This document shows, piece after piece, positions 22,519 to 45,248 of a stretch of DNA of 64,000 nucleotides; position 1 is the stretch's first letter, and each line of letters begins with the position of its first letter. This DNA is from a virus. The stretch covers positions 12,365 through 76,364 of IMG/VR virus record IMGVR_UViG_2919015088_000005, one strand, 5' to 3'. The position numbers were made by a program, and so were the translations under genes. The notes under the pieces were generated by a model that was not told the origin of the DNA, searched no databases, and worked only from the letters and a program-made list of their open reading frames with translations.

Positions 22519-22604
22519 TGGCAGCAGGTGAAGGAATCGAACCCTTACCGTTTCCAGTAGCACGGTTTTCAAGACCGCTTGCCGTCCGTACGGCGCCACC
22601 TGCT
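22519..22604 (-). tRNA. tRNA-Ser(TGA)
   Basis: Perfect AGCAGGT/ACCTGCT acceptor stem, GCGGT-CTTGAAA-ACCGT anticodon arm, long variable arm, G73-CCA. Confidence 0.85.
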
Positions 22605-22611
22605 TTGAAGC

Positions 22612-22684
22612 TGGAGCGAATGCCAGGAGTCGAACCCAGATATTCCGGAGTGACCCGGCTGCCCTACCGTTAGGCTACAAACGC
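22612..22684 (-). tRNA. Degenerate tRNA-like gene (Gly-type U73 end, 6-nt anticodon loop; anticodon not assignable)
   Basis: D arm TAGCCTAACGGTAGGGCA, T arm GGTTCGACTCC, TCCA end; two T-T mismatches in the acceptor stem. Confidence 0.55.
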
Positions 22685-29191: not shown

Positions 29192-29380
29192 TCAGCCCTT
29201 TCGTCCTATGGAAGCGACGTTGCTCCGGCTCTTTGGTGGTCGCGTCATGCGATCCAGCGCCCGGTTCATGATTGTTGCGGCCATCTCTTCTGGCGTTACC
29301 CCGTTGCGTCTGGCCAATAGCTCCAGATCAGCGAGTCCCTGCCAGTCGAGCTGGATTTCCAGCGGTTTTCTTTCAGGCAC
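29192..29380 (-). CDS. Small hypothetical regulator
   Basis: 62 aa, ribbon-helix-helix-like; after the cII-like gene. Confidence 0.55.
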   Translation of the reverse strand: MPERKPLEIQLDWQGLADLELLARRNGVTPEEMAATIMNRALDRMTRPPKSRSNVASIGRKG

Positions 29381-29398
29381 AGGGCCTCCTGGGCCACT

Positions 29399-29587
29399 TC
29401 AGGCCACGTCTGTTTTAGCGTTAAGCTCTTCCATCATCTGGTTCAGGCCGCGCTCGAGGATTTCCCGGGCGAGTACTGCTTTCTGTGTGCGCTGAAAACG
29501 AGCCATCGCTGTCAGCAGGTCGTCGGCCACCTCGTCGAGGCGGACCTTTGTGGGTTTGTCGTGCATGTGGCTTGGGTCGAAGTGCAT
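29399..29587 (-). CDS. CII-like regulator
   Basis: Position after cro; KVRLDE...VLAREIL. Confidence 0.55.
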   Translation of the reverse strand: MHFDPSHMHDKPTKVRLDEVADDLLTAMARFQRTQKAVLAREILERGLNQMMEELNAKTDVA

Positions 29588-29617
29588 CGTTTTTGCTCCT
29601 TTGAGCATGCAAGGTGG

Positions 29618-29812
29618 TTAAGCGGCTGTTTTTTGGGATGGGAACGGACGCTGCTCTTGGGCCGACAAGCTGCCGTCCTCTTCGAGGGTCACGAATACAT
29701 CGCGGCCTACACGGATCGCCTTGCTAAGCGCGCCCTGAGTGCAACCAAGCATCTGGGCAGCCTTGGTATGGCCGTGTTCTTTGGCAAATTCGGTGAGTGT
29801 GATTCGGCGCAT
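29618..29812 (-). CDS. cro: Cro repressor
   Basis: HTH GHTKAAQMLGCTQGALSKAIRVGR; divergent from cI. Confidence 0.85.
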   Translation of the reverse strand: MRRITLTEFAKEHGHTKAAQMLGCTQGALSKAIRVGRDVFVTLEEDGSLSAQEQRPFPSQKTAA

Positions 29813-29842
29813 TGCGGCGTCCTCTACGTAGATTTCACCATA

Positions 29843-29909
29843 AGTATGACCGCCGGTATTGTTCACAGTCAATACCGGCGATATTGGTTAAGTAAATACC
29901 GTGGGTAAT
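29843..29909. promoter_or_regulatory. oR with three 15-bp operators and pR
   Basis: Near-palindromes of consensus AATACC-N3-GGTATT at 29846-29860, 29871-29885 and 29895-29909; minus-strand TTGACT-18 bp-CATACT. Confidence 0.75.
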
Positions 29910-29920
29910 ACCATCAGCAG

Positions 29921-30706
29921 ATGAAAAAAGACTCCCGACGGCTTCCGTTATCCGAATGGCAGCTGCAAGACAGCGCCCGGCTGAAATCCCTATTCCAAGC
30001 TAAGCGCGGGGAACTGAAGCTCACCCAGGAAAAACTTGCTGCTGAATTGGGTGATGGCGTAACCCAGGGGGCAGTGAGCCACTTTATGAACGGACGTACT
30101 GCCCTTAGCGTGAATGCGGCAGTCGTATTTGCTAGAGCGCTCGGGGTGCCGGTTTCGGAGATAAGCCCAACCCTGTCAGCCCAGATCGAGAAAATGTCCC
30201 AGGCGCTCCCAGGAAAAATTTCTCAACAGCCAACTGATGGGCGCACTCAGCCGCGAAGTTTCAACCTGCAGGATGAGCCCGGCTACACAGGCGTTATGCA
30301 ACTGACAGCGCGCGGCTCAACCGGAGACGGCGACGATAACCCACACGTCGAGATCCGCGGCGTAATGGCGTTCAAGTCAACCTGGTTGCGCGCCAACAAC
30401 CTAAACCAGAAACACCTTGACGTGATCTATGCCAGCGGCAACAGCATGGAACCGACCATCAACGACGGCGACGTGCTGCTGGTAGATGAGTCAAAGCTCG
30501 AGCCGAAGGACGGCCAGATATTTGCCATGCAGAGCGAGTCCAAGGGAACGATCGTGAAGCGCCTTGTGAAGTCTGATTTCGAAGGCTGGATCATCCGCAG
30601 CGACAACCCAGATAAGGCCCGCTATGGCGATGAGACGCTACGTGATGGGGAGATAAACGAGGTTCGCATCATTGGGCGCGTTGTTTGGCGCGGCGGCATG
30701 CTATAG
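29921..30706 (+). CDS. cI: CI repressor (HTH plus S24 peptidase)
   Basis: LTQEKLAAEL...TQGAVSHFMNG; GNSMEPTINDGD; catalytic Lys in IVKRL. Confidence 0.95.
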   Translation: MKKDSRRLPLSEWQLQDSARLKSLFQAKRGELKLTQEKLAAELGDGVTQGAVSHFMNGRTALSVNAAVVFARALGVPVSEISPTLSAQIEKMSQALPGKISQQPTDGRTQPRSFNLQDEPGYTGVMQLTARGSTGDGDDNPHVEIRGVMAFKSTWLRANNLNQKHLDVIYASGNSMEPTINDGDVLLVDESKLEPKDGQIFAMQSESKGTIVKRLVKSDFEGWIIRSDNPDKARYGDETLRDGEINEVRIIGRVVWRGGML

Positions 30707-30748: not shown

Positions 30749-31090
30749 CTACTCTGCCTTTCGAATGTCCACACCTGACACATAGTCTGCGGCGCGGACC
30801 TCAGCCATTTCTTCGCAGTTGATGGTACCGCCGAGCTTCCTGGCTGCCTCCCGGCCATTCATGTACAGGTTGTTGACGGCGATGCCCTTGATGCCTTTAA
30901 AGGTCTTCACGGCTTCGCCCACTCTCAACCAGCCACGAAAATCTCCCGCGTTCATGCCGGCCTTGAAATCCGTACAGCCTGACACCCATATGAACTTGGC
31001 ATCCTCGTTGGCAGCCTGCTGCGAATACCCGAGCACCAGGCTCGGCACGCTAAGCAGCGACAAAAACCCTACCAAGACAATCCTTCTCAT
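30749..31090 (-). CDS. Exported protein (moron in the rex position)
   Basis: Signal peptide MRRIVLVGFLSLLSVPSLVLG; 2 Cys; convergent with cI. Confidence 0.65.
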   Translation of the reverse strand: MRRIVLVGFLSLLSVPSLVLGYSQQAANEDAKFIWVSGCTDFKAGMNAGDFRGWLRVGEAVKTFKGIKGIAVNNLYMNGREAARKLGGTINCEEMAEVRAADYVSGVDIRKAE

Positions 31091-31145: not shown

Positions 31146-31169
31146 GCCCGCCACCGAGCGGGCTTTTTC
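31146..31169 (+). terminator. Terminator (t-imm-like)
   Basis: GCCCGC-loop-GCGGGC followed by TTTTT. Confidence 0.6.
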
Positions 31170-31187: not shown

Positions 31188-31229
31188 ATGACCGGCGGTA
31201 TTGACCACATACAATACCGGAGGTATTGT
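31188..31229 (+). promoter_or_regulatory. oL operators and pL
   Basis: Operators at 31188-31202 and 31213-31227 (perfect AATACCGGAGGTATT); TTGACC-17 bp-TATTGT. Confidence 0.8.
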
Positions 31230-31616
31230 TCACCCATCGCAGCGACTTACGAGGGACTGCGAAGGGCCTCACAGCCCGCTGCTCTTTAGCGACACCCCTT
31301 GCCGGATCACCACCGGCCCAGATTCAAAGGCAGCGATGAACCGGCCTAAACGGTTCAGAGGGTTGGCAACTGACCCGGGTGTGCAGCGTAAAGCACCAGA
31401 AGCAGTTATCCGGCGGACAGGGTTCGCGGTCGGAGCAACATCGCAACTACAGAGAATTCCTCGGTAGTTGGATTCAAGCCAGTGAGTGCAGCCAGTAGCT
31501 GATCACGGCTCGCAGATGGCTCCCTGCTGATTCAGGTAGCCATCTGGTTTCACAAATGCCTCTAGACCCCCTGGAGGTATTTGGAAGCCACGAACACCCT
31601 TGACGAGGAATCAACC

Positions 31617-32099
31617 ATGCAAGCAGCAGAGCCAGCACAAGTCACCATCCCTGAAATCGGCGCTGTATGGCCTGGACAGGGCGGCATCTACGCCGGCTTC
31701 ATCCCGGCCCGTAACGATGTCCAGGGCTACCACCTGGTTCTGGGTGATGAGCTTGGACGCTTCGAGTGGGGTCAGTATGGCGATGATTCTCCGGCCACCA
31801 GCCTGATCGATGGCCGAGCCAACACATTGGCGCTAATCGAGTCGGGCGGCGAATACCCTGCCACCATCGCAGCTCACAAGCACGAAGCCGACGGTCACAC
31901 CGACTTCTACCTGCCAGCCGCTGCCGAGCTGTACGAGATATGGCTGAACCTGAATGGCAAGTTGGCCGGCTGGGTGTGGTCCAGCTCGCAGCGCTCAGCC
32001 TACCACGCATTCTACATGTACTTCGCTGGTGGCTATCAGGGCTACGGCGGCAAGACCAGCGTGCTCCGTGTCCGCCCCGTCCGCAGATTCATTCAGTAA
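31617..32099 (+). CDS. DGR target 1, DUF1566/C-type-lectin-fold protein (alternative TTG start at 31581)
   Basis: DFYLPAAAEL...WSSSQRS...RVRPVRR; carries VR1. Confidence 0.9.
   Translation: MQAAEPAQVTIPEIGAVWPGQGGIYAGFIPARNDVQGYHLVLGDELGRFEWGQYGDDSPATSLIDGRANTLALIESGGEYPATIAAHKHEADGHTDFYLPAAAELYEIWLNLNGKLAGWVWSSSQRSAYHAFYMYFAGGYQGYGGKTSVLRVRPVRRFIQ
31986..32090 (+). repeat. DGR variable repeat VR1
   Basis: 105-nt ungapped match to TR; 16 mismatches, all at TR adenines. Confidence 0.95.
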
Positions 32100-32260
32100 T
32101 TCGTTTATTGCTTTTCATGCAGGTGATTCCTGGGCCTACGAGCATCCGTAGCCAGACCAGAAGCGTCCGAGGTAGCGCTCGGCGCCTGCACCCTTTCCCG
32201 CCTCTACCCGTCAGCACTCACCCCGCGCCCATCGGCAACCAGCGGGAGGCATGAGTGTTG

Positions 32261-32737
32261 ATGAATACAGGTGAACAACCCGCCACCTTGGAGGCGACCA
32301 TGAACGCAGCATTGAAGATATGCCAGGAGCGTTACGACGCTCAGTTGCCTCCAGAGGTCAGCGAGGCAAGCCCGGAACAGGAGTGGCTGGAGCACTCGGC
32401 CGAGCAGCTGGTGCGCGGGGTAGACATCAAGTGGAAACGGCGGTGGGGCCGGCCACAGGTCGTCACGTTCGACTGTTACTGCACCTACCTTCAAGGCATC
32501 CTGAATCAGCGCCAGATAGACGGTCTGGATGAGCGTGATTCGTTCGCCCGACTGTTTCTGTCGGCCATCGGCGGCAGTGCAAGCGAAGCGCGCGGTCATG
32601 CCATTGACCTGATCGCCTCTGACAAGCCTGTGGAGTTCGCCGAGTCTGTCGCGATGACCTTGCTTGCCCCATACGCTAAAGACGCAGCAGCGGCCGAACG
32701 AGAGGCTGCTGAAGACGATGTGGATGCCGACCTATGA
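32261..32737 (+). CDS. Hypothetical early protein
   Basis: 158 aa; first of an overlap-coupled series. Confidence 0.65.
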   Translation: MNTGEQPATLEATMNAALKICQERYDAQLPPEVSEASPEQEWLEHSAEQLVRGVDIKWKRRWGRPQVVTFDCYCTYLQGILNQRQIDGLDERDSFARLFLSAIGGSASEARGHAIDLIASDKPVEFAESVAMTLLAPYAKDAAAAEREAAEDDVDADL

Positions 32738-32925
32738 GTCCTCACATCCTGATCGATGAGGCTCTGGAAACCCTGACCCATCCAGACAGCCCCGACGGCT
32801 CCCAGCACATCGTCCTGAACATGATCACCAACATGCTCACCGGCAACGCCATCACCAATGAAGAGTTCGCCCACTACTGCCAGCGCCTCCTGAAGATCAC
32901 CAGGCAGCGCAAGGAGGCCGCATGA
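32734..32925 (+). CDS. Hypothetical protein
   Basis: 63 aa; ATGA overlaps. Confidence 0.55.
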   Translation: MSPHILIDEALETLTHPDSPDGSQHIVLNMITNMLTGNAITNEEFAHYCQRLLKITRQRKEAA

Positions 32926-33116
32926 CCACTCCAGTCGTGAAAACGCTGATCGACGACCAGCTCGACGACATCGAGCGCCGCATTGCCATCATGGGCTTCG
33001 GCCTTCCCTTCAACGAACTGATCGGGCGCAAGCGTGAAGACTTGGTGCGGGACCTGCCGCAGCGCCTGGCGCCGACAATGAAGGGCGGCCGAATCGAGGT
33101 GAGGATTCGGCCGTGA
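32922..33116 (+). CDS. Hypothetical protein
   Basis: 64 aa; ATGA overlaps. Confidence 0.55.
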   Translation: MTTPVVKTLIDDQLDDIERRIAIMGFGLPFNELIGRKREDLVRDLPQRLAPTMKGGRIEVRIRP

Positions 33117-33232
33117 CCACCCACCAGCGGCACCGGCGCCGCGCCATCCGCGCTCTGTCGGCCATAGTTGGCCTGACCTTCCTCACCATCGTTCTACTGG
33201 GCCCCGCAATCGGCGGCCTGATCACCCAATAA
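33113..33232 (+). CDS. Small single-pass membrane peptide
   Basis: GTG start; TTHQRHRRRAIR followed by a hydrophobic helix; 39 aa. Confidence 0.45.
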   Translation: MTTHQRHRRRAIRALSAIVGLTFLTIVLLGPAIGGLITQ

Positions 33233-33275
33233 ACAACATCTTCAATCGCTGCGAGCATCGCGGCAGGGAGTCACC

Positions 33276-34379
33276 GTGTCCGCACAACAGCAAGTAATCA
33301 CCATCGACGACATCAGCGCCGACAACGCGCCGGCCATTTACGTCGCCGGCGGCCTGAGCCAGTTCTTCGACGCGGTGAAGGCCGAAGTAACCGCCGAGGT
33401 GCCCGATCTGACTACCGTGAAAGGTCGCGCTCGCATTGCATCCCTGGCCGCAACGGTAAGCAAGTCCAAAAAGGCAGTCGAGACGCCTGGTCGCGACTAC
33501 CTGAAGCGCCTCAAGGAAATGCCGAAGGTGGTGGAGGCTGAGCTGCGCGATTTCGTCACCAAGATGGACAGCCTACGCGATACCACCCGACAGCCGCTGA
33601 CGGACTGGGAAAACGCTGAGCAGGCCCGCAAGGACCGGCACATAGACAACATCCAGGCGATCAAGGATATGGAGGTGTTTGGAGCAACGCCGACCGCTTC
33701 TGCACTGAAACAGGTAATTGCCCAGTTGGAAGAGGTTGAGCTGGGTGACTCCTGGGAAGAGTTCCTGCCAGAGGCCGCCCAGGCTAAAGACCGAACCCTT
33801 TCCCTGCTGCGCGCACTGCTAGCCGATCGCACTCAGTACGAAGCCGAACAGGCCGAGTTGACCCGCCTTCGCCTGGAGAAGGAAGCCCGCGATAAGAAGG
33901 ACAACGAGGACCGCATTGCCCGCGAGGCCGCCGAAGAAGCAACACGGGCAGCCGAAGAAAAGGCACGCCTTGATCGTGAGGCCGAAGAAAAGCGCGTTCG
34001 CAACGAGCAGGCCGCCGCCGAGAAGCGGGAAAACGATCTGAAATTGCAGGCCGCCGAAGCCGAGCGCCAGGCCGAACAGGCAAAGCGCGAAAAGGTCGAG
34101 GCAGAACAGAAGGCCGAGCGCGACCGCCTACAAGGCATCGAGGACAAGAAAAAAGCCGTCGAACAGGCCCGGCTGGATGAGAAGGCCCGTGCCGACGCGG
34201 CAGCAGACGAAATCCTGCGCCAGCAGCAGGCGCGCGAGGCGGACAAGGCCCACAAGGGCGCGATCTACAAAGCAGCCAAGGAAGCATTCATCCAGCACGG
34301 CATGACGGAAGAATGCGCGCGACTCGCTGTGAAGCTGGTTGCGAGCGGTCTCATCCCGTCCATGTCCATCCAATACTGA
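33276..34379 (+). CDS. Long coiled-coil protein preceding the recombination genes
   Basis: 367 aa, E/K/A/R-rich. Confidence 0.7.
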   Translation: MSAQQQVITIDDISADNAPAIYVAGGLSQFFDAVKAEVTAEVPDLTTVKGRARIASLAATVSKSKKAVETPGRDYLKRLKEMPKVVEAELRDFVTKMDSLRDTTRQPLTDWENAEQARKDRHIDNIQAIKDMEVFGATPTASALKQVIAQLEEVELGDSWEEFLPEAAQAKDRTLSLLRALLADRTQYEAEQAELTRLRLEKEARDKKDNEDRIAREAAEEATRAAEEKARLDREAEEKRVRNEQAAAEKRENDLKLQAAEAERQAEQAKREKVEAEQKAERDRLQGIEDKKKAVEQARLDEKARADAAADEILRQQQAREADKAHKGAIYKAAKEAFIQHGMTEECARLAVKLVASGLIPSMSIQY

Positions 34380-34386
34380 GGTCACC

Positions 34387-35169
34387 ATGAGTAATTTAGC
34401 GTTGGCCGAACAGGCCGAAACCCAGCAGGTAGCCAACCCCGTGGCCACTAATGAATCTACTGCGATGCTGACAATGATTCAGCGAGCGGCGACTGACCCA
34501 GCATTTGATGCCGACAAGATGCAGAAGATGATGGAGATGTACGAGCGCCATACGGATCGCACAGCAGCAGCAGCTTTCAATGCCGCAATGGTCCGCGCCC
34601 AGGCTCAGATTGGTCCGGTATTCCGCGACAAAATCAATACGCAAACCAGCAGTTCCTACGCGGCACTTGAATCGATCGATAAGAAGATATCCCCGGTTTA
34701 CACCGCCTACGGCTTTTCATTGTCGTTCGGCACCGCCGATAGCTCGTTGGTCGGCCACATCCGCACCGTTTGCGACTGCATGCACGAAGGCGGCCACACC
34801 AAGCAGTATCACATCGACCTTCCCATTGACTCCGTCGGCATCAAGGGCAGCGTGAATAAAACAGGTGTCCACGCAAGCGGATCGACCTTCAGCTACGCCC
34901 GCCGCTACCTGACGATGATGATCTTCAACGTGGTAATGACCAATGAAGACGACGACGGACAAGGTGCGAACAGCCCTCAAGATCCTCCGCCAGAGCCAGT
35001 CATAACCGCAGGCCAGGCAGCCCAACTCGACGCACTTCTGAAAAAATGTACTCCGGTGCTACAAGAGAACTTCACCGCCAAATACGGCTGCGCAGCCAAC
35101 GTTTACAAGTCTGAGTTTGACGCGGTGTCGGCCCGCATCACCAAGTCTGCCAATCGCCCTCAGGAGTAA
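34387..35169 (+). CDS. erf: ERF-family single-strand annealing protein
   Basis: SSYAALESID...GSTFSYARRY. Confidence 0.8.
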   Translation: MSNLALAEQAETQQVANPVATNESTAMLTMIQRAATDPAFDADKMQKMMEMYERHTDRTAAAAFNAAMVRAQAQIGPVFRDKINTQTSSSYAALESIDKKISPVYTAYGFSLSFGTADSSLVGHIRTVCDCMHEGGHTKQYHIDLPIDSVGIKGSVNKTGVHASGSTFSYARRYLTMMIFNVVMTNEDDDGQGANSPQDPPPEPVITAGQAAQLDALLKKCTPVLQENFTAKYGCAANVYKSEFDAVSARITKSANRPQE

Positions 35170-35172
35170 GTT

Positions 35173-35790
35173 ATGCAAATCATCACTGAAGTTGAGCAGG
35201 GTTCGCCAGAGTGGCTGGCCCTGCGCCTGGGCATCGTCACTTGCTCCGAGCTGGAGTGCCTGCTTACCAACGGAAAGGGCGAGGCTGGTTTCGGCGTGGG
35301 AGCCTTCACCTACATGAACACGCTGATCGGCGAGCGCATCACCGGTGAGGCTGCCGACCCATTCCAGGGCAACCGCCACACAGAGCGTGGCCATGAGCTG
35401 GAAGGCGTTGCCCGCAAGCTGTACGAGCAGCGAGAAGAGGTCGAAACCAAGCAGGTGGCGATCATCCTAAACCACGGCGCCGGTTACTCGCCTGACTCGC
35501 TAGTGGACGCCAATGGCCTGACGGAGATTAAGACCAAGCTCCCGAAATTCCAGGTTGAGGTGATCCTTTCCGGCGAGATCCCGAAAGAACACGTTGCCCA
35601 ATGCCAGGGCGGTCTGTGGATATCGGAGCGTGAGTGGATCGACTTCGTTTGCTACTGGCCAGGCATGCCGCTGTTCATCAAGCGCGCATACCGGGATGAG
35701 GCGCTGATCCGCAAGCTGTCGGAGCGGGTCAAAACCTTCTACGAAATCTTGGAAGACCGGATGAATCGGGTCTTGGGGATAGCAGCATGA
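35173..35790 (+). CDS. YqaJ/lambda-type exonuclease
   Basis: QGSPEWLALRLGIVTCS, RGHELE, SPDSL, EIK. Confidence 0.9.
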   Translation: MQIITEVEQGSPEWLALRLGIVTCSELECLLTNGKGEAGFGVGAFTYMNTLIGERITGEAADPFQGNRHTERGHELEGVARKLYEQREEVETKQVAIILNHGAGYSPDSLVDANGLTEIKTKLPKFQVEVILSGEIPKEHVAQCQGGLWISEREWIDFVCYWPGMPLFIKRAYRDEALIRKLSERVKTFYEILEDRMNRVLGIAA

Positions 35791-36380
35791 TCAGCAACCA
35801 CCTAGGCATGGTCGAGGCTCTTCGGCCAGCATCGAACGAACTGGCCGCAGCGGTCGAGCAGTTCCTGGCGGCAGGCGGACATATCGAAGAAGGCCCGGCC
35901 TGCGGTTACATCCCCAAGCCCATCACCTACAGCAACCAGATGCCGCCGACACCGAAGCCGTTTGTGCGGCGCCGGGTCGAGCCGGCTCCCCTGCCCTTTG
36001 CTCCGCTCGACGTCAGGAGCGACAAGCGCGCCAAGCAGGCAGAGCTGGCAAAGGCCCTGGCCCCAACCCACACGCAAAGCCAAGCCTCTATGGAGCTTGG
36101 AATGACCAGCAAAACGCTCAAAGGCATGGCAAAGGACTACGGGTTCACGTTCAAGCGGTCAACGCATGGCGGGAACAATGGGCCGGAGCGCCAAAAGCAA
36201 ATCGCCGAGCGAAACGCCAAGTTTGCCGAGCGCATCAAGGAGTTCAAAGAACAGGGCATTACCCAGCGCCAGGCATATGGAAGGCTGGGTATCTCAAGGA
36301 AAACGTTCGAGAGAATCCTTGAAGAGCATGGGATTGATTATCCGAAAGCATGCCTTGGGCGTCCTTCATGCGCCGCGTAG
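35787..36380 (+). CDS. Hypothetical DNA-binding protein
   Basis: Two HTH-like segments in the C-terminal half. Confidence 0.6.
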   Translation: MISNHLGMVEALRPASNELAAAVEQFLAAGGHIEEGPACGYIPKPITYSNQMPPTPKPFVRRRVEPAPLPFAPLDVRSDKRAKQAELAKALAPTHTQSQASMELGMTSKTLKGMAKDYGFTFKRSTHGGNNGPERQKQIAERNAKFAERIKEFKEQGITQRQAYGRLGISRKTFERILEEHGIDYPKACLGRPSCAA

Positions 36381-36449
36381 CCCGCATCCAGCAACGCAAA
36401 CGTCAAACCTGGCTCGCACTGCCGGCCAGCGGAATAGAAGAGGTAGGCC

Positions 36450-36761
36450 ATGGCAGCCGCGCAGAAAGAACGATCGGCAAAGACTGAGGCGAGGCGAAAG
36501 ACTCGCGGCGAGGAAGAATTGCGATTCCACACCATGGCCGGCACCCGCCAAGCCCTGGCTGACTTGATGGCCTGGCACGGCATCGAGGAACAGGGCGAGG
36601 CTATGACCCTGATGATTCACCACCTGCACGGCCTGGGCCCAGCAGGATCAGCGCAGTTCCTCGCACCGCCGCGACACGAATACGTGATACCCGAAAACGT
36701 GTCGGCAAAATTGCAGCTCGCCTACAACCGCGAATCGCTACGCATCTGTCACGACGAATAA
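36450..36761 (+). CDS. Hypothetical phage protein
   Basis: 103 aa; GAGG RBS upstream. Confidence 0.6.
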   Translation: MAAAQKERSAKTEARRKTRGEEELRFHTMAGTRQALADLMAWHGIEEQGEAMTLMIHHLHGLGPAGSAQFLAPPRHEYVIPENVSAKLQLAYNRESLRICHDE

Positions 36762-36818
36762 CCCACCCTACTCGCTGCATCCGGTAACCGGAGGGCGGCG
36801 CTTACCTGAGGTAACCGC

Positions 36819-37430
36819 ATGAAAACTGAAATGATCACCCTGAAGCACGGTGACGCATCTATCAAGATGCCCGCTTCGTCCCTGGCAAAACTTGCAATGG
36901 CCAGTGTGTTCGCCCAGGTGCTGCCGCCGGCAGCGAATGTTCAGCCAGTACCCCAACCCCCGACCCCGGAGATTGGCCAGCCGTGGCCCGGCCAGGGCGG
37001 AATCAACGGCGGCCTCGTCCATGCCCGTGGCGACGTTCCGGCGCATTACCTGATCATCGCGACCAAGGACGTTGGCAGCCTTGAATGGGGTGGCCGTGGC
37101 GTGGAGGTGAAAGGCCTCAGCAAAACTGACGGTTACATCAACACCCAAGTGCTGATCGGAAACGACGACGAGCGAAAATATCCCGCTGCCGACGCGTGCG
37201 CCGAGTACCAGGCCGATGGTCACCACGACTTCTACCTGCCGGCCGCTGCCGAGCTGTACCAGGGCTGGCTGAACTGTCCCGAGGTGTTCGACCAGGACTG
37301 CTACTACTGGTCATCTTCGCAGCGCTCAGCCAACACCGCATTCCTCATGCACTTCGGTGCTGGCATTCAGGACAACGACGACAAGTACGACGAGCTCCGT
37401 GTCCGCCCCGTCCGCAGATTCTTTATTTAA
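36819..37430 (+). CDS. DGR target 2, DUF1566/C-type-lectin-fold protein
   Basis: GQPWPGQGG...DFYLPAAAEL...YWSSSQRS...RVRPVRR; carries VR2. Confidence 0.9.
   Translation: MKTEMITLKHGDASIKMPASSLAKLAMASVFAQVLPPAANVQPVPQPPTPEIGQPWPGQGGINGGLVHARGDVPAHYLIIATKDVGSLEWGGRGVEVKGLSKTDGYINTQVLIGNDDERKYPAADACAEYQADGHHDFYLPAAAELYQGWLNCPEVFDQDCYYWSSSQRSANTAFLMHFGAGIQDNDDKYDELRVRPVRRFFI
37317..37421 (+). repeat. DGR variable repeat VR2
   Basis: 105-nt match to TR; 11 mismatches, all at TR adenines. Confidence 0.95.
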
Positions 37431-37509
37431 TTCTTCATCCATTCGTTCTTGATCCGGCACACCAGGGCGCACAGCGCCTTTTTTGTTGCCTTCGAAAAGA
37501 GGAAGCATC

Positions 37510-38130
37510 ATGTCTGTAGTTGAAAAAGCAGCACCGGCAGAAACCACCCCGGCTATCGGCCAGGCCTACGGCGGCGGTTTCGTCACCGGCATCACCCGCG
37601 ACCCGGTGACCGGCAAGCGCTCCCTGCATATCACCGCCGGTGCCGAGCATGAACTGGTCGGTGATTGGGGTAAGTACGGCGAGAAGATCGAAGGAGCCGA
37701 CAGCTTCACCGACAGCCTGGCCAATACCCAGGCTATGGCTGCGGCTGGCAGTGATCTGGCAGCGAAAGTGCTGGACCTGAACATTGACGGCTTCACCGAC
37801 TGGGCGATCCCGGCGCGGGATGTGCAGGAGCTGCAATACCGCCACTTCAAGCCGACCACTGAAGAGAACTGGGAGAACTCACACAACGATGACAACCCGC
37901 ACAGCGAGCCAGTAGGTCAGCTGTACAGCGCCGAAGACCCGCTGCAAACAGTTCATACCGCCTTCCAGGAGGGGGGCGCCGAAGCCTTCCGCGACACCTG
38001 GTACTGGTCATCTTCGCAGCGCTCAGCCCTCACCGCTTTCTTCATGGTCTTCGCTGATGGCTTTCAGCACTACTTCGCCAAGGGCAACGAGCTCCGTCTC
38101 CGCCCCGTCCGCAGCGAACTTATTGATTAA
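37510..38130 (+). CDS. DGR target 3, DUF1566/C-type-lectin-fold protein
   Basis: TDWAIPARDVQEL...WYWSSSQRS...RLRPVRS; carries VR3. Confidence 0.9.
   Translation: MSVVEKAAPAETTPAIGQAYGGGFVTGITRDPVTGKRSLHITAGAEHELVGDWGKYGEKIEGADSFTDSLANTQAMAAAGSDLAAKVLDLNIDGFTDWAIPARDVQELQYRHFKPTTEENWENSHNDDNPHSEPVGQLYSAEDPLQTVHTAFQEGGAEAFRDTWYWSSSQRSALTAFFMVFADGFQHYFAKGNELRLRPVRSELID
38014..38114 (+). repeat. DGR variable repeat VR3
   Basis: 101-nt match to TR; 18 mismatches at adenines plus one G>C in the 3' constant part. Confidence 0.9.
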
Positions 38131-38184
38131 TTCGCTTATTTAATCCGGCCGCTTGCGGCCGGTTGCTCTTGGAGAGCGTGCCCA

Positions 38185-38541
38185 ATGGCAATGCATACGG
38201 AACTTGCGATCTACAAGGCCGCCAGCGGCTTGCTTCACATAGCCACAAATATGACCCGGAACGTACCTCGCGACCTGAAACAGTCGCTTGGAAAGCGGGT
38301 GATCGACGAATGCATTGATGTCCTGATGCTGATTGCCCGTGCCAATGCAACTCAGGACAAGCGGCCACACCTGACCCTGCTGGTCGAGAAGGTGCAGGTG
38401 GTAGAGTTCCTGATGCGACTCTTCAAAGACAACCGCTTCATCAGCACCCCACAACACGCCCAGGCAATTGAGGTAACGACCTCGATTGGCAAGCAAGCAA
38501 ACGCCTGGAAACGCTCCACCCTAACCGCGCCCGCTACCTGA
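38185..38541 (+). CDS. avd: Accessory variability determinant (four-helix bundle)
   Basis: 118 aa, ELAIYKAA...PRDLKQSLGKR...IGKQANAW; located between targets and TR-RT. Confidence 0.85.
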   Translation: MAMHTELAIYKAASGLLHIATNMTRNVPRDLKQSLGKRVIDECIDVLMLIARANATQDKRPHLTLLVEKVQVVEFLMRLFKDNRFISTPQHAQAIEVTTSIGKQANAWKRSTLTAPAT

Positions 38542-38713
38542 AGGTTACGGCTTTCTGGTCTGTGCGAATTGAATCTGGTCGTGCCGCTGACCTGATAGGT
38601 CACCGCCATGCGCACAAGGGATACCGCCGGTCTAAAGCGTCCGTGTAGGTCTCGCGCAGTTTCCAAGCTGATCGGCTCTGCCTTCGGCTTGGCGACGTAG
38701 ATAGCACGATAGG
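38542..38713 (+). ncRNA. Structured 5' leader of the DGR template RNA
   Basis: Nested complementarities 38578-84/38704-10, 38561-66/38611-16, 38588-93/38597-602 and 38663-68/38687-92. Confidence 0.5.
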
Positions 38714-38818
38714 TCGCAGCGCTCAGCCAACAACGCATTCAACATGAACTTCGATGATGGCAATCAGAACAACAACGACAAGAACAACGAGCTCCGTGTC
38801 CGCCCCGTCCGCAGATTC
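38714..38818 (+). repeat. DGR template repeat TR
   Basis: AAC-rich (9 AAC plus 1 AAT codon; 29 adenines in the 63-nt core 38729-38791); lies between avd and RT. Confidence 0.95.
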
Positions 38819-38822
38819 GACT

Positions 38823-39914
38823 TTGGGTCCCTACCCGTTTCAGGATCTGGTCCAGGCTTATTACGACTGCCGGCGTACCAAGCGCAACAGCGACAGCGCG
38901 CTGGCCTTCGAGATAGACCTCGAGCGGAACCTGATCCAGTTACACGACGACCTGATGGCCGGCGCTTACCGGCCGGGCCGATCCATCTGTTTTGTGGTCA
39001 CCCGACCGAAAGCCCGCGAGGTATGGGCAGCGGCCTTTCGGGACCGCGTCGTCCACCACCTGCTGTACAACCATGTGGCACCGCGCTTCTACGCCAGCTT
39101 CATAGCGGACAGTTGCGCATGCATTCCAGGGCGCGGCACGCTGTACGCCGCCACACGGCTTGAGTCGAAGATACGCAGCGCCTCGCAGAACTGGTCAAAA
39201 CCGTGCTGGTATCTCAAGCTCGACTTGGCCAACTTCTTCGTCGCCATCGACAAGGCGGTACTGCGCAAGCAACTGGCTGCCAGGATCACCGAACCCTGGT
39301 GGTTTGCCCTGGCCACGCAGGTCCTCATGCACGACCCGCGCGAGGATTACGAGACGCGCAGCCCGGCCCACCTGTTCAACCGGGTACCGCAGCACAAACG
39401 CCTGGTGGCACAGCCCGCGCACCTCGGTCTGCCGATCGGCAACCTGTCGTCGCAGTTCTTCGCCAACGTCTACCTCGACGCTCTGGACCAGTTCGCCAAG
39501 CACACGCTGCGCGCCAAGCACTACATCCGCTACGTCGACGACTTCGTGTTCCTGCATGAGTCGCCGCAGCAGCTCAACCAGTGGCTCGCAGAGGTTGAAG
39601 CGTTCCTACCCAGGCTCGGCGCCAAGCTGAACCCGACCAAGACGATCCTGCAACCAGTGGATCGAGGCGTCGACTTCGTTGGGCACGTGATCAAGCCTTG
39701 GCGGCGAATCACCCGTAAACGATCCCTGGCGCAGGCATTGAAGCGCACCGCGGCGGCGCCGGCCGAGGATCTGCGCGAGACAGCCAACAGTTACTTCGGC
39801 CTGCTCAGCCAGGCCAGTCACAGCCAGAAAGACCGCGCCGCCTTGGCGAATGTCGTGCTGAAGCGCGGCAACACGGTCAACGCTGCGCTGACCAAGACCT
39901 ACCAGAAGAAATAA
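38823..39914 (+). CDS. DGR reverse transcriptase (start uncertain: in-frame TTG at 38823; the ORF track begins at 38754, inside TR)
   Basis: FRDRVVHH, YLKLDLANFF, GLPIGNLSSQFFANVYL, YIRYVDD, GVDFVG. Confidence 0.95.
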   Translation: MGPYPFQDLVQAYYDCRRTKRNSDSALAFEIDLERNLIQLHDDLMAGAYRPGRSICFVVTRPKAREVWAAAFRDRVVHHLLYNHVAPRFYASFIADSCACIPGRGTLYAATRLESKIRSASQNWSKPCWYLKLDLANFFVAIDKAVLRKQLAARITEPWWFALATQVLMHDPREDYETRSPAHLFNRVPQHKRLVAQPAHLGLPIGNLSSQFFANVYLDALDQFAKHTLRAKHYIRYVDDFVFLHESPQQLNQWLAEVEAFLPRLGAKLNPTKTILQPVDRGVDFVGHVIKPWRRITRKRSLAQALKRTAAAPAEDLRETANSYFGLLSQASHSQKDRAALANVVLKRGNTVNAALTKTYQKK

Positions 39915-39957
39915 TCCAACCCCATCAACGAATCACGCCAGCCGGCGAGGATCCCCT

Positions 39958-40426
39958 ATGCCCGATATCACCTACGGCTCTGTGTGCAGCGGCATCGAAG
40001 CCGCGACACAGGCCTGGCACCCGCTGGGCATGCGCGCCGCCTGGTTCGCCGAGATTGAGCCGTTTCCCTCGGCGGTCCTGGCCCACCACTACCCGGACGT
40101 GCCGAACCACGGCGACATGACCAAGCTGGCCGCCCTGGTGCTGGCCGGCAAGATCCCGGCACCGGACGTGCTGGTCGGCGGCACCCCGTGCCAAGCTTTC
40201 TCGGTCGCCGGTATGCGCGAAGGCCTCACCGACCCGCGCGGCGCCCTCACCATCAAATACGTGGAGCTTGCAGATGCAGTTGACTATGTTCGCGCCTGCC
40301 AGCGAATGCCCGGACGGCCCCCGCTACAAGGCGATCGGCAACAGCAAGGCCGTGCCTTGCGTACGCTGGATCGGCCGACGCATCCTCAAGCAGATCAGTC
40401 CTTCAAATTGGTGTCAGATTCAATAA
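39958..40426 (+). pseudogene. C5 cytosine DNA methyltransferase with a large internal out-of-frame deletion
   Basis: Motif I SVCSGIE and motif IV GGTPCQAFS, then a switch at about 40304-40307 to a +1 frame carrying motif X CPDGPRYKAIGNSKAVPCVRWIG; motifs VI-VIII and the TRD are absent. Confidence 0.85.
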
Positions 40427-40628
40427 TCGGCTGAGCGTCCCCGCCCTCACGCTTAAATCGTAACCACTCTCTGGCCCGGACTACGTTGAAAACCCAAAGG
40501 TCTTGGTGAAATAAGTGAAGAGCTGTCCCGGAAATGCGATACCAACCACACTCGACGCAGTTGACCAACTTACCGCCATTTGCGATAGGCCCATCCGTGG
40601 CCGGGCCGCTGCACACAAAACAATTCAT
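40395..40628 (-). CDS. Small zinc-ribbon protein
   Basis: CFVC...CVEC; 77 aa; antisense to the early-left operon. Confidence 0.55.
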   Translation of the reverse strand: MNCFVCSGPATDGPIANGGKLVNCVECGWYRISGTALHLFHQDLWVFNVVRAREWLRFKREGGDAQPIIESDTNLKD

Positions 40629-43693: not shown

Positions 43694-43941
43694 ATATCGA
43701 ACAGGAAATTATTCACGTCCCTGAACTAGCGAAGTTGCTGGGCCGGTCCGAGTCATCGATTCGTAGCGCGCACCAGGCGGGAGCGTACTGGCTGCCGCCT
43801 TTCTTCAAGCAGGGAAGCCGGATCTGCTGGAGGGTAAGCACGGTCCTGCGATTCCTGAAGGAGTGCGAGGAAGGGATGCATGCGCCGAAGCGCCCTGGCC
43901 GGAAGCGCCAGACGCCGCCGACGCTCTCCCGTGTCGGCTAA
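43690..43941 (+). CDS. Excisionase/AlpA-like protein
   Basis: wHTH VPELAKLLGRSESSIR...WRVSTV; convergent with int. Confidence 0.75.
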   Translation: MNIEQEIIHVPELAKLLGRSESSIRSAHQAGAYWLPPFFKQGSRICWRVSTVLRFLKECEEGMHAPKRPGRKRQTPPTLSRVG

Positions 43942-44915
43942 CCGAGCTTGTCGGCCAGGGCGTCAGGGCAAAGGTGCGTGTACCTGCGTAAAACACTGAG
44001 GGTGCGGTGGCCTGTGATGGAGGCCACTTCCATGAGCGACAACCCCCTTTCAAAGAAGCGCGACGTGCCTTCATGTCGCATATCGTGGAAGTGGAGATCC
44101 TTTACTCCGGCCGCCCGGCAGGCGCGCAGGAAATACTGGCTGACGGAGTGCGGGGCCAGGGAGAATACCTGGCCATCAATGCGTGCGGGTAACGACTCAA
44201 GCAGCGCGCGCGCACGAATCGATAGCGGCACAAGCCGGCGGCTGCCGTTCTTGGTGTCCTCAAGCAGCGCGTGCTTGCCCTTGATGTCGGCGCGCCGGAG
44301 TGTCAGCAGTTCGCTACGGCGCATTGCGGTCTCCACGGCAATCTCGATGATCACCGGCATTTCCGCATGGATTGCACCTGCAGCCTTGATCACTGCTTTC
44401 AACTCAGCAGCACTCGGCCGGCGGTCACGCTCCCGGCTCCCCTTGGGCATCCGAAGCTTTGCTACCGGGTTGCTTAGCCCCTCAATCCCCCAGTCCTTGA
44501 TAGCCACGGTGTACAAATGGCTGATCAGCGCCAGCGATAATCGAATGGTGTTGGTTGATGCCCCGGCAGCCAGGCGCGCATCACGGTACTCGGCCAGGTC
44601 AGACGACCGCAGTTCGGCCAGCGACTTGCCGCCATACTTCCCTTCGGACCACGTCTTTATCCGGGTCAGCTCCTGGCGAGCCCCCTTCTTCTGCGTAGAC
44701 ACTTCTCGCGCATAGCGCTCAAAGGCCTTCGCAACCGTTGTGGCTTCGGCCTCGCGGGTATCGACGAAGCGCTTGCGCGACATATCCCCCTCGATTTCAG
44801 AAGCCCACCGCTGAGCCTCCGCCTTCGTGTCGAACGAAGCCGAAAGTGCCGGGTATCCTTTTTTGCGGATCTTGGTCCGCCATGTCCCATTGGGACGTTG
44901 TTCGATAGTCGCCAT
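43938..44915 (-). CDS. int: Tyrosine integrase
   Basis: TAMRRSEL (catalytic R), HDMRHE, GH and RYTHL catalytic residues; adjacent to att. Confidence 0.95.
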   Translation of the reverse strand: MATIEQRPNGTWRTKIRKKGYPALSASFDTKAEAQRWASEIEGDMSRKRFVDTREAEATTVAKAFERYAREVSTQKKGARQELTRIKTWSEGKYGGKSLAELRSSDLAEYRDARLAAGASTNTIRLSLALISHLYTVAIKDWGIEGLSNPVAKLRMPKGSRERDRRPSAAELKAVIKAAGAIHAEMPVIIEIAVETAMRRSELLTLRRADIKGKHALLEDTKNGSRRLVPLSIRARALLESLPARIDGQVFSLAPHSVSQYFLRACRAAGVKDLHFHDMRHEGTSRFFERGLSLMEVASITGHRTLSVLRRYTHLCPDALADKLG

Positions 44916-45009
44916 GCAGCGGATTTTGCCGATCAGTCCTGGGACATGCAAACAGTGTCGCTGTCCCAGAATTGTCCCAATCGCCGCGCCGAACAAAATC
45001 CGCAGGCAT

Positions 45010-45046
45010 AAAAAAAGCCCCGCAAGCTCAATGGCTGCGGGGCTTT
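45010..45046 (-). terminator. Terminator downstream of the tRNA-Cys 3' end
   Basis: AAAGCCCCGCA-loop-TGCGGGGCTTT followed by a T-run on the minus strand. Confidence 0.75.
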
Positions 45047-45052
45047 AAAGAG

Positions 45053-45099
45053 TGGAGGCCGAGGTCGGAATCGAACCGGCGTAGGCGGATTTGCAATCC
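45053..45099 (-). other. att core: 3' half of tRNA-Cys(GCA)
   Basis: GGATTGCAAATCCGCCTACGCCGGTTCGATTCCGACCTCGGCCTCCA; the 5' half is missing and replaced by AT-rich sequence. Confidence 0.9.
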
Positions 45100-45248
45100 A
45101 TACAAATATTCATATTTATCAGATAGTTAAACTAATATCAATTCCGCACATCTGGTATTTTTACGGCGCCGAAGCCCGCTAAAATCGGGGGGATCAATTT
45201 TAATTGCGGAATGGATTTTACTATGCTTCGGGCTTGGGCTTGGCCTGC

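What the first reader, a model, noticed from the sequence alone, without database searches (positions are those of the whole stretch)
31617..39914. Three-target DGR in a prophage early operon, diversifying apparently intracellular proteins instead of a tail fibre
Seen in sequence: avd (38185-38541), a 105-nt AAC-rich TR (38714-38818) and an RT with YVDD (to 39914). Three copies of the TR sequence end three ORFs, at 31986, 37317 and 38014. They differ from TR at 16, 11 and 18 positions that are adenines in TR, with only one non-A mismatch in total. Established: this is the adenine-specific mutagenic retrohoming signature of DGRs (Bordetella BPP-1 mtd/avd/TR/brt), where the target is a virion receptor-binding protein. 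Unusual here: all three targets are 160-206 aa stand-alone lectin-fold proteins with no signal peptide, TM helix or fibre-anchoring N-terminus. They sit on the pL transcript with ERF/exonuclease genes, on the strand opposite all structural genes. Inference: the phage hypervaries a small family of cytoplasmic binders expressed right after induction or infection, for example inhibitors of host defence proteins or binders of competing-phage proteins. Non-structural DGR targets have been reported in metagenome surveys, but I know of no function assigned to this type.
Basis: partly seen in the sequence, partly recalled or inferred. Interest (0 to 1): 0.93.

Follow-up and report, generated by a model that had tools for sequence, protein, structure and literature searches.

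The report
Phage mutator targeting three early proteins
A dormant Pseudomonas virus carries a working targeted-mutation system (a DGR) that rewrites the binding tips of three small, signal-less lectin-fold proteins made from its earliest operon rather than a tail fibre. The layout is common in related phages and has published precedents, but what these proteins bind is unknown.

Summary
A 105-nt template repeat (TR, 38714-38818) has three copies ending three ORFs. 45 of 46 mismatches fall on TR adenines (P about 2e-21). Avd, an RT with IGNLSSQ and YVDD, and an Rfam RT-15 RNA between avd and TR complete the cassette.

The element was active recently. Contigs from three other sequencing runs are identical to the window outside the variable repeats (VRs). 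They differ at 12-15 VR positions, and every listed one is a TR adenine. In 80 IMG/VR relatives the TR is nearly invariant, while 121 VRs carry 1765 adenine against 234 other mismatches.

The targets are DUF1566/Lcl_C C-type-lectin-fold proteins with no signal peptide or membrane helix. T1 is the first gene behind a repressor-operator-controlled early promoter. T2 and T3 sit beside ERF and exonuclease genes. The same module rides with a contractile tail here and a lambda-like tail in cultured phage Cruim01, which argues against tail-tip proteins.

An intracellular role is plausible but untested. Benler 2021 and the phage Magia announcement are published precedents. This scan found the same layout on other genomes before. 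Verdict: real, active, a new variant of a known kind, function open.

The parts
29855..29876 (.). Palindromic operator-like site GGTATTG-N8-CAATACC (oR), between a cro-like minus-strand ORF (29399-29608) and the repressor gene
   Evidence: One of only two exact matches in the 64 kb window (0.11 expected). It overlaps a minus-strand promoter-like site.
29921..30706 (+). CI-like repressor (HTH_3 plus Peptidase_S24)
   Evidence: Pfam HTH_3 5e-10 and Peptidase_S24 1e-15; phrog_4 transcriptional repressor 1e-40.
31146..31163 (+). Terminator-like hairpin downstream of the repressor gene
   Evidence: GC stem followed by a T run.
31197..31229 (+). oL/pL: the second exact operator palindrome (31197-31218), overlapping a promoter-like TTGACC-17-TATTGT
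31617..32099 (+). Target T1 (160 aa), the first clear ORF behind pL, a DUF1566/Lcl_C-type lectin-fold protein
   Evidence: Lcl_C 1.9e-5, below the cut-off; phrog_4245 2.6e-29; 45-49% identical to T2 and to Cruim01 gene 61; maximum 19-residue hydropathy 0.75; no Cys.
31986..32090 (+). VR1
   Evidence: 16 adenine and 0 other mismatches to TR.
32255..36380 (+). Early-left genes between T1 and the cassette: phrog_4801 gene, 367-aa coiled-coil protein (phrog_1376), ERF annealase (34339-35169), YqaJ exonuclease (35173-35790) and a 197-aa HTH protein (35787-36380)
36450..36761 (+). Conserved 103-aa gene (phrog_5439) that precedes T2 in many relatives, with or without a DGR
   Evidence: An orthologue lies just upstream of T2 in about half of the IMG/VR loci, and a gene of the same size does so in Cruim01, Medea1 and L013.
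36819..37430 (+). Target T2 (203 aa): N-terminal beta-hairpin plus helix (residues 1-34), Pro-rich linker, C-type-lectin domain
   Evidence: AlphaFold2 pLDDT 95; best PDB match is the Legionella Lcl C-terminal domain 8q4e_A, E 2.4e-6, TM 0.73; 895 homologues, nearly all 203 aa and from Pseudomonas.
37317..37421 (+). VR2
   Evidence: 11 adenine and 0 other mismatches. It differs between otherwise identical contigs of other runs, only at TR-adenine sites.
37510..38130 (+). Target T3 (206 aa), a lectin-fold paralogue with an insertion
   Evidence: Lcl_C 3e-5; phrog_4245 5e-28; 67-75% identical to Cruim01 gene 47 and Medea1 gene 72.
38014..38118 (+). VR3 (homology to TR ends about 38113)
   Evidence: 18 A and 1 non-A mismatch over 100 nt.
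38145..38162 (+). GC-rich hairpin downstream of VR3 (CCGGCCG-CTTG-CGGCCGG)
   Evidence: DNA fold z = -4.9. VR2 has a weaker hairpin at 37464-37480. VR1 has none.
38185..38541 (+). avd (accessory variability determinant)
   Evidence: PF22296 45 bits (cut-off 40), phrog_3206 1.7e-30, NF033474 1.3e-13.
38525..38716 (+). RT-15 RNA (Rfam RF03018), filling the avd-TR gap
   Evidence: 182 bits against a gathering score of 82, full length. It is present directly 5' of TR in 6 of 6 DGR-bearing relatives and absent from 2 DGR-less ones.
38714..38818 (+). Template repeat (TR), AAC-rich, ending in the GC-rich GTCCGCCCCGTCCGCAG element shared with all VRs
   Evidence: It is identical or within 2 nt in 46 of 59 IMG/VR relatives.
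38754..39914 (+). DGR reverse transcriptase. The ORF starts inside TR; the true start may be later, for example at 38823.
   Evidence: RVT_1 1.5e-18; IGNLSSQ and YVDD; 75-95% identical in relatives.

Best explanation
This is an intact, recently active diversity-generating retroelement (avd, RT-15 RNA, TR, RT). It sits in the repressor-controlled early-left operon of a temperate, contractile-tailed Pseudomonas prophage related to phiAH14a.

Inferred mechanism. When the repressor is lost, at infection or induction, pL drives T1 first, then the recombination genes, T2, T3, Avd, the TR RNA and the RT. The RT copies the TR RNA with random nucleotides opposite adenines. The cDNA then replaces the last ~100 nt of T1, T2 and T3, guided by the shared GC-rich 3' element. 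This randomises about 13 codons on the ligand-binding face of three small DUF1566/Lcl_C C-type-lectin-fold proteins.

Shown here: the cassette, the adenine-specific signature, recent activity, the fold, the lack of export signals, and the early-operon position.

Inferred: the three proteins are soluble early proteins that act inside the infected cell as variable binders of host or rival-phage factors. They would be an intracellular analogue of tropism switching, rather than tail-tip receptor-binding proteins.

Confidence that it is an active DGR is about 0.97. Confidence that the targets are non-virion intracellular binders is about 0.5. The figure in the confidence field is for the whole statement.
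For: DGR identity: 45 of 46 mismatches on A, P 1.7e-21; IGNLSSQ and YVDD; Avd, RT; RT-15.

Activity:
- Contigs of runs X3, X4 and X5 have 0 differences to the window in the flanking pieces but 12-15 in VR2 or VR3, and every listed position is a TR adenine.
- SC_8_H2H8_2017 has an identical TR and different VRs.
- In IMG/VR, 57 of 68 loci with room carry the RT. 121 VRs carry 1765 A against 234 non-A mismatches. 53 of 57 VR2 alleles are unique.
- T2 homologues vary almost only at TR-adenine codons.

Selection for function: internal adenines of CAG, AAG and GAG are almost never changed, while the flanking AAC codons change in 40-90% of alleles.

Fold: AlphaFold2 pLDDT 95 and Foldseek to the Lcl C-terminal domain and C-type lectins.

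No export signal: maximum 19-residue hydropathy is 0.75-1.26, against 2.15 for a neighbouring secreted protein. T1 and T3 have no Cys.

Early, repressor-controlled expression: the only two exact operator palindromes in 64 kb lie at cI and just upstream of T1, with a promoter-like site and a terminator.

Not tail-linked: this prophage has a sheath, a baseplate J protein and its own 720-aa fibre, whereas Cruim01, with orthologous T1-T3 and the same DGR, is a lambda-like siphovirus (PMC11256456). Homologous small genes sit a few genes after cI in DGR-less D3 and FBPa42 and beside ERF/YqaJ in Medea1 and L013.
Against: No experiment or tool result shows where the proteins are or what they bind. The DUF1566/Lcl_C relatives with a known location are surface or secreted proteins: the Legionella Lcl adhesin, the LdtA lipoprotein (PMC5758913), and giant multi-repeat proteins among the hits. 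The fold therefore has an extracellular pedigree.

T2-type proteins carry a conserved 34-residue N-terminal mini-domain and linker. This could dock on a virion or another partner.

All experimentally understood phage DGRs diversify receptor-binding proteins. Small adhesins can be encoded away from tail genes. Absence of a signal peptide was judged by hydropathy only. PADLOC and NCBIfam give no functional hint.
Confidence: 0.5

Rival explanations
1. The three proteins are detachable receptor-binding adaptors. They would be made in the cell, bound to the tail (for T2 through its N-terminal mini-domain), and would redirect adsorption. That makes this an ordinary tropism-switching DGR whose targets merely lie outside the tail module.
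For: BPP-1 and most viral DGR targets are tail proteins (PMC8144416, PMC5758913). T2-type proteins have a conserved N-terminal domain plus linker. Three paralogues could serve three receptors. The lectin fold family is otherwise extracellular.
Against: The same targets travel with a contractile-tail virion here and a lambda-like siphovirus in Cruim01, and homologues occur in a cI/cro-bearing phage named as a podovirus (FBPa42). T1 and T3 have almost no N-terminal extension. T1 is the first gene behind the early promoter. The position is conserved in early operons even without a DGR.
Confidence: 0.2
2. The proteins serve the lysogen. They would be hypervariable intracellular sensors or blockers of incoming rival phages (superinfection exclusion), with the DGR giving a population of lysogens a pre-made repertoire.
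For: The genes lie close to the immunity region, and T1 is about 0.9 kb after cI. A low-GC two-gene island of an S24 repressor plus a T2-like gene persists inside a flagellar cluster without other phage genes. DGR-diversified intracellular sensors are proposed in bacteria (PMC10907252, PMC10053308). Contigs of relatives covering T3-avd-TR-RT occur in RNA libraries, which is weak evidence because DNA carry-over is not excluded.
Against: T1 lies behind an operator-bearing promoter and a terminator, so it should be silent in a lysogen. No other promoter-like site was found upstream of T2 and T3. The proteins have no effector domain and no PADLOC match. The RT and TR are in the same repressed operon, so diversification should happen during lytic growth.
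Confidence: 0.15
3. The proteins act outside the cell after lysis. Released soluble lectins would bind variable surface glycans, debris or matrix, for example to keep progeny from being trapped or to mark neighbouring cells.
For: The fold family is extracellular. There is no export signal, but lysis would release the proteins.
Against: Expression from the earliest promoter is an odd choice for a protein needed at lysis. There is no precedent known to me. Nothing in the data points to it specifically.
Confidence: 0.07
4. The cassette is an inactive relic, and the VR differences are old.
For: Some relatives have lost the RT and TR (Medea1; L013, which has an HNH gene in their place) yet keep adenine-only VR differences.
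Against: Here all parts are intact. Near-identical genomes in other runs differ only at VR adenine sites. The TR is conserved while almost every VR allele is unique.
Confidence: 0.03

Closest known systems
Bordetella phage BPP-1 DGR (mtd-avd-TR-brt)
   Same: Avd plus RT with IGxxxSQ and YxDD motifs. One TR. Adenine-specific rewriting of the 3' end of a C-type-lectin-fold gene. A GC-rich 3' element shared by TR and VR. A GC hairpin after at least one VR.
   Different: There are three targets instead of one. The targets are 160-206 aa early-operon proteins, not a 381-aa tail-fibre tip protein. The cassette lies in the pL operon, not at the end of the tail module. A structured RT-15 RNA lies 5' of TR, and TR abuts or overlaps the RT start, whereas BPP-1 is described (from my own knowledge) as having a spacer 3' of TR.
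DGRs with DUF1566-type (CLec2, category 'd') targets, exemplified by Legionella pneumophila LdtA (Wu et al. 2018, PMC5758913)
   Same: Same target domain family (Lcl_C/DUF1566) and the same kind of C-terminal VR.
   Different: LdtA is an exported surface lipoprotein on a conjugative element. These targets have no lipobox or signal sequence and are phage early genes.
Second, distal DGR target of Quimbyvirus (Benler et al. 2021, PMC8008677)
   Same: A phage DGR target away from the structural module, on the opposite strand, among methyltransferase and nuclease genes, proposed to be non-structural and involved in phage-host conflict. Function unknown.
   Different: Quimbyvirus also diversifies a tail-module protein, whereas here no structural target exists. 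The host is Bacteroides. The protein family and RT organisation differ.
Burkholderia cenocepacia phage Magia DGR (PMC7883833)
   Same: A temperate myophage with Avd and RT, and VR/IMH sequences in two 'relatively short reading frames'.
   Different: It was only noted in a genome announcement. I did not compare the sequences, so family membership and operon position are untested here.
Cellular DGRs diversifying putative intracellular antigen sensors (PMC10907252)
   Same: Lectin-type variable domains proposed to work inside the cell in conflict systems.
   Different: Those targets are large multidomain proteins with effector or NTPase modules in bacterial chromosomes. These are binder-only proteins encoded by a phage.

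Membership tests
Diversity-generating retroelement | TR/VR pair whose differences fall almost only on TR adenines | tested here: met
   45 of 46 mismatches are on A, P 1.7e-21. In 121 related VRs there are 1765 A against 234 non-A mismatches.
Diversity-generating retroelement | DGR-clade reverse transcriptase (RVT_1 with an [LIV]GxxxSQ motif and YxDD) | tested here: met
   RVT_1 1.5e-18. IGNLSSQ at residue 228 and YVDD at 260. No RT phylogeny was built.
Diversity-generating retroelement | Accessory protein Avd next to TR | tested here: met
   PF22296 at 45.2 bits against a cut-off of 40. phrog_3206 at 1.7e-30. NF033474 at 51 bits, below its cut-off of 80.
Diversity-generating retroelement | IMH at the VR 3' end, with a slightly different IMH* at the TR end, and a downstream GC hairpin | tested here: inconclusive
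   The GC-rich element GTCCGCCCCGTCCGCAG is shared by TR and all VRs. TR is identical to VR1 and VR2 up to the point where homology ends, so no IMH/IMH* distinction is visible. There is a strong hairpin only after VR3, a weak one after VR2 and none after VR1.
Diversity-generating retroelement | VR lies in the ligand-binding part of a C-type-lectin-fold protein | tested here: met
   T2 model with pLDDT 95. Foldseek top hit is the Lcl C-terminal domain 8q4e_A at E 2.4e-6, followed by C-type lectins. T1 and T3 are assigned by homology only.
Diversity-generating retroelement | Ongoing mutagenic retrohoming | tested here: met
   The evidence is indirect but strong. Otherwise identical contigs from other runs differ only at VR adenine sites. 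The TR is conserved and the VR alleles are almost all unique. No time-course or mutant control is possible with these tools.
BPP-1-type tropism-switching DGR (target is a virion receptor-binding protein) | The target protein is part of the tail and determines host range | not testable with these tools
   Context argues against it: the early operon, and unrelated tails in relatives. No virion or adsorption data exist.
Lcl_C / DUF1566 (PF07603) | Pfam match at or above the gathering score | tested here: not met
   24.7-26.6 bits against a cut-off of 34.9 for all three targets. Precomputed PF07603 hits are on record for many close homologues, and the fold matches 8q4e. They are best called DUF1566-like.

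The most novel reading that the evidence does not exclude
The phage uses its DGR to evolve intracellular host-range determinants. On this reading T1-T3 form a three-member library of antibody-like early proteins. Random variants would neutralise whichever variable immune or exclusion protein the next host or a resident rival phage carries. DGR tropism switching would then operate on barriers inside the cell instead of on surface receptors.
Probability: 0.25. Interest if true: 0.9.

Novelty: new variant of a known kind. Interest (0 to 1): 0.58.

Why it matters
DGRs are the only known natural system of targeted protein hypermutation outside vertebrate immunity. For phages, the only understood use is changing receptor specificity. 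Here a widespread family has at least 57 intact relatives in IMG/VR, and hundreds of Pseudomonas genomes carry the target gene. This family aims the mutator solely at small soluble proteins made from the first operon expressed after infection.

If these proteins work inside the cell, phages have an anticipatory way to overcome or impose intracellular barriers, which would be a new function for DGRs. If they turn out to be detachable adhesins, that would show that receptor-binding parts can be encoded and timed quite unlike tail genes.

Either answer is within reach. The system occurs in cultured phages of tractable hosts (Cruim01, and apparently Aurca01). Natural DGR-less controls also exist (Medea1).

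Tried and rejected
Nothing was learned.
- The search for related loci in genome contigs with a single protein gave only 2 loci.
- The diverse alignment A1 was too variable for pattern search. A narrower alignment worked.
- PADLOC and NCBIfam gave no family for T1-T3 or for the conserved 103-aa neighbour.
- Rfam at E <= 0.1 over 29-45 kb found only RT-15, so there is no recognisable RNA in the 390-nt leader before T1.
- RNA-library contigs (runs X12, X15, X16, X18) cover relatives of T3-avd-TR-RT. They are Logan contigs about 90% identical to the window, DNA carry-over cannot be excluded, and parts without cover mean nothing. This is not used as evidence of expression.
- The weak tblastn hits in jumbo phages such as Paride fall on the strand opposite the annotated gene and were dropped.
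- The ORFs 29208-29495, 29561-29908 and 31201-31467 from my first greedy gene call are probably not genes. They have low GC3, and one is overlapped by the operator and the cro-like gene.
- Literature searches for RT-15 together with DGR found nothing. The papers on Cruim01, Medea1 and P. syringae prophages do not mention a DGR.
- No inverted repeat was found after VR1.

Full report
**Observation**

The 105-nt TR (38714-38818, 33 adenines) was scanned against both strands, allowing any change at adenines. Exactly three further copies appear, at 31986, 37317 and 38014. Aligned with flanks, homology starts at the same base in all four copies. It ends just after a shared GC-rich element, GTCCGCCCCGTCCGCAG.

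Over the 100 nt common to all copies, the mismatches are 16/0, 11/0 and 18/1 (adenine/other). With 45 of 46 on adenines, P = 1.7e-21. Each VR forms the 3' end of an ORF:
- T1, 31617-32099
- T2, 36819-37430
- T3, 37510-38130

Downstream lie avd (PF22296 above its cut-off; phrog_3206 'Avd protein of DGR') and an RT (RVT_1) with IGNLSSQ and YVDD.

**An extra part**

The avd-TR gap is filled end to end by Rfam family RT-15 (RF03018): 182 bits against a gathering score of 82, at 38525-38716. The same RNA lies directly 5' of TR in six of six DGR-bearing relatives tested. It is missing from two relatives that lack the RT. The TR runs into the RT ORF, so there is no room for a spacer between TR and RT.

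**Is it active?**

Four lines of evidence say yes.

1. Logan contigs of three other runs (two groundwater metagenomes and one organism run) match the window with 0 differences across the pieces flanking the repeats. They carry 12-15 differences inside VR2 or VR3. Every listed position is an adenine in TR.
2. Phage SC_8_H2H8_2017 has a TR identical to this one but different VRs. Cruim01 has its own TR and three VRs with 10/0, 12/1 and 13/3 mismatches.
3. Among 80 IMG/VR loci found with a T2 alignment, 57 of 68 with enough downstream sequence carry the RT, and 63 carry Avd. 46 of 59 TRs are within 2 nt of this one. 121 VRs carry 1765 adenine against 234 other mismatches. 53 of 57 VR2 alleles and 53 of 56 VR3 alleles are unique.
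4. In 120 T2 homologues, column entropy peaks exactly at the codons that contain TR adenines.

Adenines inside CAG, AAG and GAG in the middle of the VR are changed in 0-4% of T2 and T3 alleles (one of seven T1 alleles at the GAG). Neighbouring AAC codons change in 40-90%. Selection therefore keeps scaffold residues, and the proteins are in use. A synonymous adenine at TR position 12 is never changed. This places the usual 5' limit of rewriting between positions 12 and 16.

**The targets**

All three match Lcl_C/DUF1566 weakly (below the Pfam cut-off) and match the C-terminal third of phrog_4245. An AlphaFold2 model of T2 built on 109 sequences has mean pLDDT 95. It shows a beta-hairpin plus helix (residues 1-34), a Pro-rich linker and a C-type-lectin-like domain. 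Foldseek ranks the Legionella Lcl C-terminal domain first (8q4e_A, E 2.4e-6), followed by C-type lectins.

The highest 19-residue hydropathy is 0.75, 1.26 and 0.93 for T1, T2 and T3. A neighbouring secreted protein scores 2.15. T1 and T3 have no cysteine. No signal peptide or membrane helix is therefore apparent.

A search of 1.8 billion representatives finds 3690 relatives. Most of the top ones are stand-alone proteins of 160-260 aa, and a few are giant multi-repeat proteins.

**Genomic setting**

The window is part of a 76.6-kb IMG/VR provirus record that holds two stacked prophages.

The DGR belongs to the left one. Its structural genes all lie on the minus strand, in the region from about 4.5 kb upstream of the window's first base to window position 20 kb (terminase, portal, capsid, sheath, tape measure, baseplate J, a 720-aa fibre, endolysin, Rz). 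Its integrase is at 43938-44996. It shares its terminase region and its early genes with phage phiAH14a.

The right-hand element (45-64 kb) has its own contractile-tail genes, also on the minus strand.

The CI-like repressor (29921-30706) is flanked by the only two exact copies in 64 kb of the palindrome GGTATTG-N8-CAATACC (0.11 expected). One lies at 29855, beside a minus-strand promoter-like site and a cro-like ORF. The other lies at 31197, overlapping a plus-strand promoter-like site. A terminator-like hairpin (31146-31163) separates cI from this pL.

T1 is the first convincing ORF behind pL. After T1 come:
- a phrog_4801 gene
- a 367-aa coiled-coil protein
- ERF
- the YqaJ exonuclease
- an HTH protein
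- a conserved 103-aa gene
- T2, T3, avd, TR and RT
- a truncated C5-methyltransferase and a DUF4406 protein

**Is the position an accident?**

No. Cruim01, a plaque-isolated temperate siphovirus of P. syringae (PMC11256456), has the same three targets, avd, RT-15, TR and RT in its early-left arm. Its RT is annotated 'retron-type', and the paper does not mention a DGR. Its tail is lambda-like: major tail protein, a 1341-aa tape measure and a 1093-aa J-like fibre. It is unrelated to the contractile tail here.

Medea1 and a P. brassicacearum prophage (L013) keep T2 and T3 orthologues, and L013 also keeps a T1-type gene, beside ERF/YqaJ. They lack avd and the RT, and L013 has an HNH gene in that place. 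Their VRs still differ from the TR almost only at adenines.

P. aeruginosa phages D3 and FBPa42 have a DUF1566-like gene a few genes after cI. It ends in a nearly identical GC-rich element, but the VR has diverged at all bases. The family is thus a regular tenant of Pseudomonas phage early operons, with or without the mutator.

**Interpretation**

The data show an active DGR and three small, soluble-looking lectin-fold targets under early, repressor-controlled transcription.

The step from there to 'cytoplasmic binders of defence or rival-phage proteins' is inference. Four observations favour it:
- the timing of expression
- the lack of export signals
- the company of recombination and anti-restriction genes
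- the independence from tail type

Three points weigh against it:
- the extracellular pedigree of the fold (Lcl, LdtA, giant adhesin-like repeats; PMC5758913)
- the conserved N-terminal mini-domain of T2-type proteins
- the fact that every phage DGR understood so far serves adsorption

I put the intracellular reading at about 0.5, a detachable virion adaptor at 0.2, a lysogen-protecting role at 0.15, and other readings lower. RT, TR and Avd sit in the same repressed operon, so diversification should occur during lytic growth. That fits a role in the next infection better than a role in the resting lysogen.

**Novelty**

DGRs with DUF1566 targets are a recognised class (category 'd' of Wu et al., PMC5758913). 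Pseudomonas is listed among DGR-rich genera (PMC6642488). Benler et al. 2021 (PMC8008677) described a Quimbyvirus DGR with a second, apparently non-structural target in a defence-related island. They stated that phage targets known until then were structural. The Magia announcement (PMC7883833) notes VRs in two short ORFs. None of these assigns a function.

Several features are not described in the papers I could read:
- a DGR whose only targets are early-operon proteins
- T1 as the first pL gene
- an RT-15 RNA in place of a downstream spacer
- cultured carriers together with natural DGR-less controls

This scan has already reported the same layout on other genomes. I score this as a new variant of a known kind. 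Interest is moderate to good because the open question of what non-structural DGR targets do is directly testable here.

Noticed in passing
window 38525-38818: The Rfam RT-15 RNA fills the avd-TR gap exactly, and TR runs into the RT ORF. This DGR family therefore has a structured RNA 5' of TR and no spacer 3' of it, unlike the avd-TR-spacer-brt order I recall for BPP-1. RT-15 may be the functional DGR RNA scaffold of this family.
   Followed up: partly
L008 7001-8309 (Medea1); L013 1188-1790 and 8001-9314; L007 4665-5342 (D3); L009 3854-4342 (FBPa42): These are orphan targets. DGR-less phages keep the target genes with the GC-rich 3' element. In Medea1 and L013 the VRs still differ from the TR almost only at adenines. 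In L013 an HNH_3 gene sits where avd and the RT would be. D3 and FBPa42 keep the element, but their VRs have diverged at all bases. They might be rewritten in trans by a co-resident DGR phage.
   Followed up: partly
L014 6107-8669 and L015 750-3312: A low-GC (48% against 57%) two-gene island lies inside a flagellar gene cluster, with no other phage genes. It consists of an S24-type repressor and a 222-aa T2-like protein with the same N-terminal mini-domain. It has no VR or IMH.
   Followed up: partly
window 30749-31090 (-): A 113-aa gene lies on the opposite strand between cI and pL. It has a clear N-terminal signal peptide (hydropathy 2.15) and no family match. It looks like a secreted moron protein in the immunity region.
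   Followed up: no
window 39958-40434: The C5 cytosine methyltransferase gene is only 158 aa long and matches the first third of the Pfam model. The relative L013 has a 647-aa methylase downstream of its targets. It is probably a truncated gene.
   Followed up: no
window 35787-36380: This 197-aa early protein has a weak match to the SutA RNA-polymerase-binding domain (residues 16-35) and a C-terminal HTH. An 80-aa gene with the same weak match occurs in L013. It may be a phage modulator of host RNA polymerase.
   Followed up: no
window 43938-45250: Two prophages are stacked. The integrase of the DGR phage (minus strand) abuts the lysis end of a second, contractile-tailed element that runs to the end of the record and is cut there.
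   Followed up: partly
window 38714-38730 (TR positions 5-17): The synonymous adenine at TR position 12 (TCA) is unchanged in all of about 120 VR alleles, while the synonymous adenine at position 24 (GCA) changes in 13-43%. The 5' limit of cDNA replacement therefore seems fixed between TR positions 12 and 16.
   Followed up: partly
window 22519-22684: ARAGORN finds a tRNA-Ser(TGA) and an odd tRNA-like gene with a two-base 'anticodon' between the early-right genes and the terminase.
   Followed up: no
window 36400-39950 in runs X16, X18 and X15: RNA-seq assemblies from three studies contain contigs about 90% identical to T3-avd-RT-15-TR-RT. The contigs break at the VR/TR shared element. Transcription is not proven.
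   Followed up: partly
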